16,715 bases of DNA from a virus. Positions 14,248 to 14,613 of this stretch are shown here, in pieces. The notes below the pieces were generated by a model. It saw nothing but the letters and a program-made list of their open reading frames with translations, did no database searches and was not told where the DNA came from. A program made the position numbers and the translations under genes. Every line of letters starts with the position of its first letter. Position 1 is the stretch's first letter. The stretch lies in UHGV virus genome UHGV-1907752; one strand, 5' to 3'.

Positions 14248-14574
14248 TCAGGGTGCAGAAGGACTAAAGATAAACGTTTTCTTCACGCCTTTACACGGCC
14301 TGTCCTTCTCAAATCGCCATTTTGCCATCGCCTTTACAACCTGCTCATCAAACAGATGGTGCGGCTCTGAACGAATAAACTCAATTCGGGTGACAGTACC
14401 ATCAGCACCAATATCAAACCTCACATCAACCCGTCCCTTTATATAATTTGCCGCTGCATAGGCCGGATATTGTGGTAATGCCTTAACCAACTGTCGGGGC
14501 ATATCTGTTTTATGTTGCGTACAGCCCATAACCAGAGAAGACAACAAAATAATTAACGGAAGATTTCTTTTCAT
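14248..14574 (-). CDS. lipoprotein consisting of a TonB C-terminal-domain homolog (moron)
   Basis: Signal peptide with lipobox MKRNLPLIILLSSLVMG-C, with Thr at +2. The mature part aligns well by eye with the E. coli TonB C-terminal domain (PQYPAYAAANYIKGRVDVRFDIGADGTVTRIEFIRSEPHHLFDEQVVKAMAKWRFEK versus TonB [56 protein letters not shown]). AT-rich context. I prefer the start at ATG 14572-14574, which has GGGGA 6 nt upstream. Confidence 0.65.
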   Translation of the reverse strand: MKRNLPLIILLSSLVMGCTQHKTDMPRQLVKALPQYPAYAAANYIKGRVDVRFDIGADGTVTRIEFIRSEPHHLFDEQVVKAMAKWRFEKDRPCKGVKKTFIFSPSAP

Positions 14575-14592
14575 TTTCATTCCCCGCACAGA

Positions 14593-14613
14593 TTAGAATA
14601 AGTCTTATTCTAA
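14593..14613. promoter_or_regulatory. 21-bp perfect palindrome TTAGAATAAG-T-CTTATTCTAA overlapping a candidate promoter for the lipoprotein moron
   Basis: Perfect inverted repeat 20-40 nt upstream of the lipoprotein start codon. On the minus strand it overlaps a TAGAAT -10-like hexamer (14607-14612), with a TTGATG -35-like hexamer about 19 bp further upstream. Confidence 0.4.

What the first reader, a model, noticed from the sequence alone, without database searches (positions are those of the whole stretch)
14248..14613. Prophage moron encoding a lipoprotein that is essentially a free-standing TonB C-terminal domain
The mature protein aligns by eye along the whole TonB C-terminal domain (PQYPA…G.V.V.FD…DG.V…P…F…V..AM..WR.E), but the TonB proline-rich spacer and N-terminal anchor are replaced by a lipoprotein signal peptide (LVMG-C, Thr at +2, which in enterobacterial sorting rules would send it to the outer membrane). 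A periplasmic, membrane-tethered TonB C-domain could bind the TonB boxes of outer-membrane transporters and act as a dominant-negative TonB mimic, protecting the lysogen from TonB-dependent phages and colicins. This would be a superinfection-exclusion mechanism distinct from the known Llp/Cor-type lipoproteins that target FhuA. The gene sits in an AT-rich island between the lysis and packaging modules, a classic moron site, with a palindrome over its putative promoter.
Basis: partly seen in the sequence, partly recalled or inferred. Interest (0 to 1): 0.8.

Follow-up and report, generated by a model that had tools for sequence, protein, structure and literature searches.

The report
Prophage lipoprotein copying TonB's C-terminal domain
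A lambdoid prophage of E. coli carries a small, separately expressed gene for a lipoprotein that is little more than the receptor-docking end of the host's TonB protein; it probably jams TonB-dependent entry routes used by other phages and by colicins, but nobody appears to have tested this.

Summary
On the minus strand, 14574..14248 encodes a 108-aa protein with a conserved lipoprotein signal peptide (LVMG-C18, Thr +2). After a 7-residue tether comes a complete TonB C-terminal domain: Pfam TonB_C E=9e-15, and a gapless alignment to E. coli TonB 153-231. The AlphaFold model superposes on TonB bound to BtuB or FhuA at 1.1-1.2 A. The gene lies in a ~600-bp AT-rich cassette between Rz/Rz1 and the HNH-terminase module, and the close relative BP-4795 lacks that cassette. 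It is under purifying selection (dN/dS 0.11 between two alleles). It occurs in about 30% of complete E. coli genomes, including phage 21 and Nissle 1917. Published RNA-seq shows the LF82 orthologue transcribed in the lysogen at roughly host tonB mRNA levels. Lipoprotein homologues also exist in Klebsiella phage and, outside prophages, in Serratia and Raoultella chromosomes. The dominant-negative "TonB decoy" reading is plausible, because engineered periplasmic TonB fragments inhibit TonB-dependent transport. It remains inference. The palindrome is real here but not conserved. The gene is already annotated ("TonB family protein", "TonB fragment") but I found no functional study. Verdict: real, ordinary as an annotation, interesting as an untested exclusion mechanism.

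The parts
14248..14574 (-). CDS of the 108-aa TonB_C lipoprotein (stop codon 14248-14250; start ATG 14574-14572)
   Evidence: start supported by the RefSeq call, the SD spacing and ATA at the upstream ATG in 13/80 loci
14521..14574 (-). Signal peptide with lipobox (M1-C18; L14-V-M-G-C18, +2 Thr)
   Evidence: read directly from the sequence; Cys invariant in homologues from E. coli, Klebsiella phage, Raoultella, Serratia, Erwinia and Pantoea, with +2 always S/T/A/V
14263..14499 (-). TonB C-terminal domain (residues 26-104 = E. coli TonB 153-231), alpha-beta-beta-alpha-beta
   Evidence: AF2 pLDDT 96-98; Foldseek 2gsk_B/2grx_C TM 0.92, rmsd 1.1-1.2 A
14581..14585 (-). Shine-Dalgarno-like GGGGA, 6 nt before the start codon
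   Evidence: read from the sequence
14607..14634 (-). Sigma-70-like promoter: -35 ATGACC, 16-nt spacer, TG-extended -10 TAGAAT
   Evidence: consensus scan only; the TGT[T/C]AGAATAAGAC block is conserved in the diverged phage 21/Nissle allele; the orthologue is transcribed independently of flanking late genes in an LF82 lysogen
14593..14613 (.). Perfect 10-1-10 palindrome overlapping the -10 hexamer
   Evidence: chance 0.003 per cassette; not conserved: 9/10 in most close relatives, right arm absent in allele 2
14120..14722 (.). Approximate limits of the AT-rich moron cassette (promoter + gene + ~130 bp 3' tail); replaced by ~190 bp of unrelated DNA in phage BP-4795
   Evidence: alignment with BP-4795; GC profile
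14913..15380 (-). Rz i-spanin (context; upstream neighbour in the late-transcription direction)
   Evidence: Pfam PF03245 E=7.5e-50
14975..15160 (-). Rz1 o-spanin embedded in Rz (context; shows the spanin function is already covered)
   Evidence: Pfam PF06085 E=1.7e-21
13916..14116 (+). YlcI/YnfO (DUF3950) gene, convergent with the TonB_C gene (context)
   Evidence: Pfam PF13132 E=4e-20; RefSeq annotation
13509..13874 (-). HNH endonuclease preceding terminase small/large subunits (context; start of the packaging module)
   Evidence: Pfam PF01844

Best explanation
The gene is a prophage moron. [quoted passage not shown] There a 7-residue tether holds a complete TonB C-terminal domain. The protein lacks TonB's membrane anchor and proline-rich rod, so it cannot be energised by ExbB/ExbD. 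It keeps the beta3 edge strand and the PxYP/aromatic core with which TonB captures TonB-box strands by beta-augmentation. The most likely action is therefore that of a non-productive competitor of TonB. It would occupy TonB boxes of TonB-dependent transporters, or of group-B colicins as they thread into the periplasm, or it would form dead-end heterodimers with TonB. Any of these would damp TonB-dependent entry of heterologous phages (T1/phi80 type), colicins and microcins into the lysogen, at some cost to siderophore and B12 uptake. Shown here: domain identity and fold, conserved lipobox, cassette nature, purifying selection, wide distribution, transcription of an orthologue in a lysogen. Inferred: outer-membrane location, binding of TonB boxes, and any exclusion phenotype.
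For: TonB_C is significant and the alignment to TonB 153-231 is gapless. Y163, P164, F180, F202, W213 and F230 are retained and Y215 becomes F. The high-confidence model superposes on TonB from the BtuB and FhuA complexes at TM 0.92 and 1.1-1.2 A. The lipobox Cys is invariant across genera and the +2 residue is never Asp. dN/dS is 0.11 between the two E. coli alleles, and the signal peptide is constrained too (0.14). The cassette is an indel relative to BP-4795 and has low GC. A TG-extended -10 is conserved between diverged alleles. The LF82 Perceval orthologue is transcribed 8-fold above prophage background, in all five conditions, while flanking Rz and terminase are silent. Homologues are present in 1618 of 5426 complete E. 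coli genomes. As precedent, overexpressed periplasmic TonB domain inhibits TonB-dependent import (citing Howard et al. 2001 J Bacteriol 183:5885). From my memory of that abstract, phi80 infection and colicin M killing were inhibited as well.
Against: No experiment on this protein was found. The orthologue's mRNA is only about equal to host tonB mRNA (log2 fpkm 5.0-6.6 against 4.2-7.2), whereas the precedent used overexpression and transporters outnumber TonB. A general TonB block would cost iron uptake. TonB Q160 is L or Y here, R166 is Y, and beta3 carries two Lys where TonB has Val-Val, so partner specificity may differ from TonB's. Whether a 7-residue outer-membrane tether is geometrically compatible with docking under a transporter was not tested. 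Homologues in Serratia and Raoultella lie in non-prophage chromosomal contexts, which argues for a physiological role that is not specifically anti-phage. The family is not in PADLOC.
Confidence: 0.45

Rival explanations
1. It is a physiological modulator rather than a defence. The outer-membrane TonB_C lipoprotein would tune or gate TonB-dependent transport or signalling for the host's benefit, for example limiting iron or toxic-ligand uptake, or binding one specific transporter. The phage simply carries a copy of a host accessory gene as a fitness or virulence moron, as it does Bor/Iss next door.
For: Lipoprotein homologues sit between ycgN and dsbB/nhaB in Serratia grimesii and next to a LacI-type regulator and DUF1440 in Raoultella, with no phage genes nearby. 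The gene is enriched in pathogenic and commensal lineages (O157, O145, O111, APEC O1, LF82, Nissle). It lies beside bor/iss in phage 21 and Nissle. Expression is constitutive and moderate. Perceval also carries sitABCD, a TonB-independent Fe/Mn importer.
Against: No phenotype is known. Mechanistically it still works through the same TonB-box competition, so it overlaps with the best explanation and differs only in the selected benefit.
Confidence: 0.22
2. The TonB_C fold is used for a different partner. The lipoprotein would bind some other periplasmic beta-strand motif or peptidoglycan, as other TonB_C/TolA-like domains do (for example in gliding-motility proteins). It would have nothing to do with TonB-dependent transporters.
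For: TonB_C-like domains occur in non-Ton proteins (NCBIfam hits to AgmX/PglI and GltG tails). The residues equivalent to Q160, R158 and R166 and two beta3 positions differ from TonB but are conserved within the lipoprotein family, with family-specific motifs such as SEPxHLFD and KWRFExxKP.
Against: The closest sequence and structure matches by far are enterobacterial TonB itself, at 38% identity and 1.1 A. The strand that captures TonB boxes and the PxYP motif are retained.
Confidence: 0.15
3. It has a late lytic-cycle function. The gene is co-oriented with, and directly downstream of, the lysis cassette, so it would be made at high level late in infection. It could then help envelope disruption or stop progeny from being wasted on debris. 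This is what PHROGs implies by naming the family 'Rz-like spanin'.
For: It has the same orientation as the late operon and no terminator was detected between Rz and the gene. Synteny just after lysis genes is kept in E. coli phages, a Klebsiella phage and one Serratia locus. PHROG 1267 carries that label.
Against: The window already has a complete Rz/Rz1 pair. The gene is dispensable, being absent from BP-4795 and many Stx phages. It is transcribed in the lysogen while lysis genes are silent. The fold is TonB_C, not a spanin. Phage 21 adsorbs to LamB, which is TonB-independent.
Confidence: 0.08
4. It is a non-functional remnant of a captured host tonB gene ('TonB fragment').
For: It has been annotated 'TonB fragment' or 'partial tonB-like'. 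Several database copies are truncated or frameshifted.
Against: dN/dS is 0.11 with saturated dS. A purpose-built lipoprotein signal replaces the TonB N-terminus and is conserved across genera. The intact 108-aa ORF is found in hundreds of genomes. It is transcribed.
Confidence: 0.03

Closest known systems
E. coli TonB (C-terminal domain, residues ~150-239; PDB 1U07, 2GSK, 2GRX)
   Same: Same Pfam domain, 30/79 identical residues without gaps, same alpha-beta-beta-alpha-beta fold at 1.1-1.4 A. The PxYP motif, the aromatic core and the beta3 strand that pairs with TonB boxes are conserved.
   Different: It has no N-terminal transmembrane anchor, no Pro-rich rod and so no coupling to ExbB/ExbD; a lipoprotein signal takes their place. 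Q160 becomes L/Y, R166 becomes Y and V225-V226 become K-K. It ends 4 residues after beta3.
Engineered periplasmic TonB fragments (Howard, Herrmann, Stratilo & Braun 2001, J Bacteriol 183:5885)
   Same: A TonB C-terminal portion placed in the periplasm without its anchor, reported to inhibit TonB-dependent uptake. This is the functional precedent for the decoy idea.
   Different: Those were artificial, soluble and overexpressed, and the shortest was TonB 122-239. This protein is natural, lipid-anchored, corresponds to TonB ~145-235 and is expressed at moderate level.
Llp (phage T5) and Cor (phi80/N15/HK022-type prophages): outer-membrane lipoproteins that inactivate FhuA
   Same: Small phage-encoded lipoproteins acting from the periplasmic side on a TonB-dependent transporter to block entry of phages and colicins.
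   Different: No sequence or fold relationship: Pfam gives only TonB_C, and the BFVD fold search finds no viral match with E<0.1. Llp and Cor are FhuA-specific and protect against the phage's own receptor use. This protein would be generic for TonB boxes, and its carrier phage 21 uses LamB.
Bor/Iss lipoprotein moron of lambda-like phages
   Same: Small outer-membrane lipoprotein moron at the same genomic site (between Rz and cos/terminase), expressed in lysogens. It lies adjacent to the TonB_C gene in phage 21, Nissle and Perceval.
   Different: Unrelated sequence, opposite strand, a serum-resistance function, and strong induction in macrophages where the TonB_C gene is flat.
Annotated orthologues: phage 21 CPT_21_73 'TonB C-terminal domain protein', LF82 Perceval LF82_160 'TonB fragment', RefSeq WP_000828072 / WP_000830178 'TonB family protein'
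   Same: Same family: 71-100% identity, same length, lipobox and position.
   Different: None in kind; they are alleles. None has a described function in the literature I could search.

Membership tests
TonB_C domain family (Pfam PF03544 / TIGR01352) | Significant match to the family profile above the curated cut-off | tested here: met
   PF03544 55.3 bits against a cut-off of 24.6; TIGR01352 55.1 bits against 27.1
TonB_C domain family (Pfam PF03544 / TIGR01352) | alpha-beta-beta-alpha-beta fold superposable on solved TonB C-terminal domains | tested here: met
   AF2 pLDDT 96-98 over residues 30-100; TM 0.88-0.92 and rmsd 1.1-1.4 A to 1u07, 2gsk_B and 2grx_C
TonB energy transducer (TonB proper, e.g. 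NCBIfam PRK10819 equivalogs) | N-terminal transmembrane anchor that couples to ExbB/ExbD | tested here: not met
   The N-terminus is a cleavable lipoprotein signal. Only positions ~152-240 of the TonB equivalog profiles are matched, and scores of 49-74 bits fall far below the cut-offs of 265-448
TonB energy transducer (TonB proper, e.g. NCBIfam PRK10819 equivalogs) | Proline-rich periplasm-spanning spacer | tested here: not met
   Only 7 residues (TQHKTDM) separate Cys18 from the domain
Bacterial lipoprotein, outer-membrane sorted | Basic n-region, hydrophobic h-region, lipobox [LVI][ASTVIM][GAS]C, and no Asp at +2 | tested here: met
   MKRN-LPLIILLSSLVMG-C18-T. The lipobox Cys is invariant and +2 is S/T/A/V in 25+ homologues. 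The sorting rule comes from established Lol-pathway knowledge
Bacterial lipoprotein, outer-membrane sorted | Actual lipidation and outer-membrane localisation | not testable with these tools
   Needs globomycin or palmitate labelling and membrane fractionation
Prophage moron | Discrete insertion relative to close relatives, with atypical composition | tested here: met
   The ~600-bp cassette is absent from BP-4795 with sharp borders; GC is 0.375-0.42 against 0.52-0.60
Prophage moron | Own promoter and transcription in the lysogen independent of phage late genes | tested here: met
   A promoter-like site exists with a conserved extended -10. The allele-2 orthologue LF82_160 is 8-fold above prophage background while Rz and terminase are at background. 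This was shown for the orthologue, not for this exact allele
Prophage moron | Own terminator | tested here: not met
   No intrinsic-terminator-like site in 13800-15100
Receptor-blocking superinfection-exclusion lipoproteins (Llp/Cor type) | Homology or shared fold with Llp or Cor | tested here: not met
   Only TonB_C families are hit; no significant BFVD structural neighbour
Receptor-blocking superinfection-exclusion lipoproteins (Llp/Cor type) | Expression protects cells from phages or colicins that use the targeted receptor | not testable with these tools
   Needs plating and killing assays
Spanin (PHROG 1267 label 'Rz-like spanin') | o-spanin/i-spanin architecture and need for it in the lysis cassette | tested here: not met
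   The window has its own Rz (PF03245) and embedded Rz1 (PF06085). This protein has a TonB_C fold, lies 340 bp downstream behind its own promoter, and is absent from related phages
Known anti-phage defence systems (PADLOC-DB v2) | Match to a catalogued defence protein model | tested here: not met
   Only a 0.038 chance-level hit

The most novel reading that the evidence does not exclude
About 30% of E. coli genomes, including phage 21 lysogens and the probiotic Nissle 1917, carry a prophage-borne, outer-membrane-tethered 'TonB-box trap'. It would confer broad, receptor-independent protection against all TonB-dependent phages, group-B colicins and catecholate microcins, by competing with TonB or trapping incoming TonB boxes. 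This exclusion principle targets the energy-coupling step rather than a particular receptor, and so differs from Llp/Cor. It was recruited from a wider, uncharacterised family of enterobacterial TonB_C lipoproteins.
Probability: 0.35. Interest if true: 0.75.

Novelty: new variant of a known kind. Interest (0 to 1): 0.6.

Why it matters
If the decoy function is real, it is a new way for a prophage to protect its host. It would block the shared energy-coupling step of a whole class of outer-membrane gates instead of one receptor. That would bear on three things: sensitivity of clinical and probiotic E. coli to therapeutic phages that use TonB-dependent receptors; colicin and microcin warfare in the gut; and uptake of siderophore-conjugated antibiotics such as cefiderocol-type drugs, which need TonB. 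It would also give a natural reagent for probing TonB-transporter interaction. It further flags a systematic mis-annotation: PHROG 1267 is labelled 'Rz-like spanin', and that label propagates through automated phage annotation. If the function is not real, the result is still useful, because it defines a conserved family of small TonB_C lipoproteins in Enterobacterales with no known role.

Tried and rejected
1. Fur regulation. The palindrome matches the 19-bp Fur consensus at only 11-12 of 19 positions. About 100 19-mer placements (counting both strands) score that well in the window. The orthologue's mRNA does not follow host tonB across iron-poor and iron-rich conditions. Rejected as unsupported.

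2. Palindrome as a conserved operator. It is statistically real here. It is imperfect in most close relatives, and its right arm is missing in allele 2. What is conserved is the extended -10. The palindrome remains unexplained.

3. Spanin or lysis role. Rejected.

4. Structured RNA in the conserved 190-nt block upstream (14722-14912). There is no Rfam hit and the fold z-score is -0.86.

5. Defence-system catalogues. No PADLOC hit.

6. Viral structural neighbours. None in BFVD.

7. Self-exclusion through the carrier phage's own receptor. Phage 21 uses LamB. The J tip of the closest full-length match to this window, the prophage of E. coli VL7S7 (the window ends before J), is VT1-Sakai-like and about 52% identical to the lambda and 434 J tips; its receptor is not determined. 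No cor gene is annotated in that prophage.

8. The first structure prediction, from a shallow alignment, was mediocre (pLDDT 66). It was superseded by a deeper alignment.

9. The first genome-contig scan with the broad alignment failed for lack of conserved columns and was repeated with a narrower alignment.

10. Ten literature searches found no functional study. The library covers open-access papers and bioRxiv only, and Howard et al. 2001 itself could not be opened.
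Full report
WHAT IS THERE

The feature is a gene on the minus strand. The mechanical ORF is 14589..14248. The real start is almost certainly the ATG at 14574, giving MKRNLPLIILLSSLVMGC..., 108 aa. Three observations support this: RefSeq starts its identical protein there (WP_000828072); a GGGGA lies 6 nt upstream; and 13 of 80 related viral contigs have ATA in place of the upstream ATG.

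The protein has three parts:
- A signal peptide with a basic n-region, a 12-residue hydrophobic core and the lipobox L-V-M-G-C18, followed by Thr.
- A 7-residue linker.
- A complete TonB C-terminal domain.

HOMOLOGY AND FOLD

- Pfam TonB_C scores 55 bits against a cut-off of 24.6, E=9e-15.
- TIGR01352 gives E=7e-15. The full-length TonB equivalog models are matched only over their last ~85 positions and far below their cut-offs.
- Against PDB sequences, residues 26-104 align without a gap to E. coli TonB 153-231 (1U07, 2GSK, 2GRX), E~1e-15. Thirty of 79 residues are identical.
- The retained residues include P161, Y163, P164, F180, F202, W213 and F230, and Y215 becomes F.
- The differences include R158 to K/T, Q160 to L/Y, R166 to Y, and two Lys where TonB has V225-V226 on beta3.
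- An AlphaFold model built on 22 family members has pLDDT 96-98 over residues 30-100.
- That model superposes on TonB taken from the BtuB and FhuA complexes with target-normalised TM 0.92 and rmsd 1.1-1.2 A.

GENOMIC SETTING

The window is the late region of a lambdoid prophage of E. coli with an HK97-type head and a lambda-type tail. The best match is 98.4% over the whole window. Reading along the minus strand, the order is:
- endolysin (16556..16023)
- Rz with embedded Rz1 (Pfam PF03245 and PF06085)
- a 190-nt conserved non-coding block
- the TonB_C gene
- the convergent YlcI/YnfO (DUF3950) gene
- HNH endonuclease
- terminase small and large subunits

GC falls to 0.375-0.42 across 14100-14700, against 0.52-0.60 on either side. 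Alignment with phage BP-4795, which has the same Rz, DUF3950 and HNH genes but no TonB_C gene, places the cassette borders at about 14722 and 14120. BP-4795 has ~190 bp of unrelated DNA there. This is a textbook moron insertion.

PROMOTER AND PALINDROME

A sigma-70-like site lies 14634..14607: ATGACC, 16 nt, TG-extended TAGAAT. The palindrome TTAGAATAAGnCTTATTCTAA (14593-14613) overlaps the -10 and is far beyond chance: 0.06 expected per window and 0.003 per cassette.

It is not a family feature, however. Only 3 of 80 close relatives have the perfect form. Most read ...CTTATTCTTA. In the ~71%-identical allele of phage 21 and Nissle 1917 the right arm is gone, while TGT[T/C]AGAATAAGAC, the extended -10, is kept.

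A Fur-box reading is weak, at 11-12 of 19 positions, a score reached by about 100 19-mer placements in the window counting both strands. It also conflicts with the expression data below.

IS THE GENE FUNCTIONAL AND EXPRESSED?

Two main alleles exist in E. coli.
- Allele 1 is at least 95% identical in DNA to the window and occurs in 414 of 5426 complete genomes.
- Allele 2 is 71% identical in protein and occurs in about 1200 more genomes, including Nissle 1917 and APEC O1.
- Allele 2 is also found in the sequenced phages 21, ev017 and Perceval.

Between the alleles dS is saturated (1.6) and dN/dS is 0.11. The signal peptide alone gives 0.14. That rules out a decaying 'TonB fragment'.

Published RNA-seq of the LF82 lysogen lists the Perceval orthologue LF82_160 ('TonB fragment') as a moron, 8-fold above the prophage background (PMC9928086, Table 1). 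The supplementary tables show log2 fpkm 5.0-6.6 in all five conditions (DMEM 1 h and 6 h, LB overnight, macrophage 1 h and 6 h). In the same samples the flanking Rz and terminase genes sit at 2.3-4.3. Host tonB ranges from 4.2 to 7.2 and does not co-vary with the moron.

So the gene has its own constitutive, moderate promoter activity in lysogens, at roughly tonB mRNA level. This was shown for the orthologue, not for this exact allele.

THE WIDER FAMILY

An exhaustive profile search found 4726 TonB_C proteins. The nearest non-E. coli relatives are short proteins of 107-133 aa that align from residue 1. Most of these have a lipobox; two have plain signal peptides.

One homologue is in Klebsiella phage ST13-OXA48phi12.4, again just downstream of holin, lysozyme and spanins and upstream of terminase. 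A genome scan found full-length lipoprotein homologues in Raoultella, Klebsiella, Serratia, Erwinia, Pantoea and Pseudescherichia. All have the lipobox Cys, and +2 is S, T, A or V.

Several of these are not in prophages:
- In Serratia grimesii the gene lies between ycgN-like and dsbB/nhaB genes.
- In Raoultella it lies beside a LacI-family regulator, a DUF1440 membrane protein or an alpha/beta hydrolase.
- One Serratia locus does have an endolysin immediately upstream.

The family therefore has both chromosomal and phage-borne members. The phage genes were probably recruited from this lipoprotein family rather than cut directly out of tonB.

HOW IT MOST LIKELY WORKS

Established knowledge supplies three points. 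TonB captures the TonB box of transporters by adding it as a strand next to beta3 of the C-terminal domain (summarised in PMC11658791). TonB needs its N-terminal anchor and ExbB/ExbD to do work. E. coli lipoproteins without Asp at +2 go to the outer membrane.

A lipid-anchored C-domain at the inner leaflet of the outer membrane is thus placed where TonB boxes emerge, and it cannot transduce energy. It should therefore act as a competitor or trap.

The precedent is experimental. Overexpressed periplasmic TonB domain inhibits TonB-dependent iron import (citing Howard et al. 2001). From my memory of that paper's abstract, phi80 infection and colicin M killing were inhibited too, and both competition at transporters and mixed dimers with TonB were proposed. 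I could not open the paper.

Phage 21 adsorbs to LamB. Any protection would therefore be directed at other phages, colicins and microcins, not at the carrier phage itself.

Caveats:
- Moderate expression, where the precedent required overexpression.
- The cost to iron uptake.
- Substitutions at Q160, R166 and beta3 that may change partner preference.
- Untested geometry of the short tether.
- The existence of non-phage homologues.

I put the decoy or exclusion mechanism at about 0.45, with the defence-specific benefit (rather than physiological tuning) as the least certain part.

RIVALS
- A physiological modulator or virulence-type moron using the same chemistry (0.22).
- A different binding partner for the fold (0.15).
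- A late lytic role, as implied by the PHROG 1267 label 'Rz-like spanin'. This is contradicted by the complete Rz/Rz1 pair, by dispensability and by expression in the lysogen (0.08).
- A dead remnant, contradicted by selection and conservation (0.03).

COMPARISON WITH WHAT IS KNOWN

The protein is a member of the TonB_C domain family, but not a TonB: anchor and spacer were tested and are absent. It works, by hypothesis, like the engineered periplasmic TonB fragments. It plays a role analogous to the Llp/Cor lipoproteins but is unrelated to them: Pfam gives TonB_C only, and there is no BFVD neighbour. It would act on the coupling step rather than on FhuA specifically. It shares site and type with the Bor/Iss moron. 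It is not in PADLOC.

The gene is already in databases under vague names, and one paper lists it as an expressed moron. Ten full-text searches found no functional work. The library covers open-access papers and bioRxiv only.

VERDICT

Novelty: a new variant of a known kind, namely receptor-targeting exclusion lipoproteins and dominant-negative TonB fragments. Interest 0.6, because the hypothesis is cheap to test, the gene is in about 30% of E. coli genomes, including classic and probiotic strains, and the outcome bears on phage therapy, colicin ecology and siderophore-drug uptake.

Noticed in passing
window 14248-14574 (family-wide): PHROG 1267, which this protein matches end to end (E=1e-42), is labelled 'Rz-like spanin'. 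The family is a TonB_C lipoprotein and the window has its own Rz/Rz1, so the label looks like a positional mis-annotation that will propagate through automated phage annotation.
   Followed up: yes
window 14722-14912: A 190-nt unannotated block immediately downstream of Rz is at least 90% conserved in phage 21, Nissle 1917 and BP-4795. That is better conserved than the neighbouring genes. It occurs 4485 times in 1865 of 5426 E. coli genomes. There is no Rfam hit and no unusual RNA stability (z=-0.86). Its function is unknown.
   Followed up: partly
window 14593-14613: The perfect 10-1-10 palindrome over the -10 hexamer is statistically real, but it is specific to a minority of allele-1 loci. 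Which protein, if any, binds it is unexplained. The match to the Fur consensus is only 11-12 of 19.
   Followed up: partly
window 13916-14116 (+): A YlcI/YnfO (DUF3950) gene is convergent with the TonB_C gene and is conserved next to the HNH/terminase genes even in phages that lack the cassette. From its sequence it looks to me like a small DNA-binding (ribbon-helix-helix-like) protein; this was not tested.
   Followed up: no
window 7055-7064 and 8961-8982: There is a run of 10 N (masked or gap) inside the portal-region ORFs. There is also a GC-rich perfect hairpin, ACGGGAGGCG-ca-CGCCTCCCGT, between the capsid and portal genes.
   Followed up: no
L091 6738-7301; L005 2277-2903: A DUF1440 (YagU-like) membrane protein lies directly next to the chromosomal TonB_C lipoprotein in Raoultella. 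One is also carried by the Klebsiella phage that has a TonB_C lipoprotein. This is a possible functional link based on only two cases.
   Followed up: no
LF82 prophage Perceval (OV696612; PMC9928086 Table 1): The same prophage carries the TonB_C moron and sitABCD, a TonB-independent Fe/Mn importer. That could offset a cost of damping TonB-dependent iron uptake. Bor next door is induced more than 100-fold in macrophages, whereas the TonB_C gene stays flat.
   Followed up: partly
L094 (Serratia grimesii) 5986-6312; L088, L091 (Raoultella): Non-prophage chromosomal homologues of the lipoprotein exist, for example between ycgN-like and dsbB/nhaB genes. This points to an uncharacterised host family of outer-membrane TonB_C lipoproteins in Enterobacterales.
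   Followed up: partly
window 15480-15945 (-): Small ORFs between the endolysin and Rz are annotated only as hypothetical proteins in RefSeq, and the two I scanned (15480-15752 and 15733-15945) have no Pfam match.
   Followed up: no
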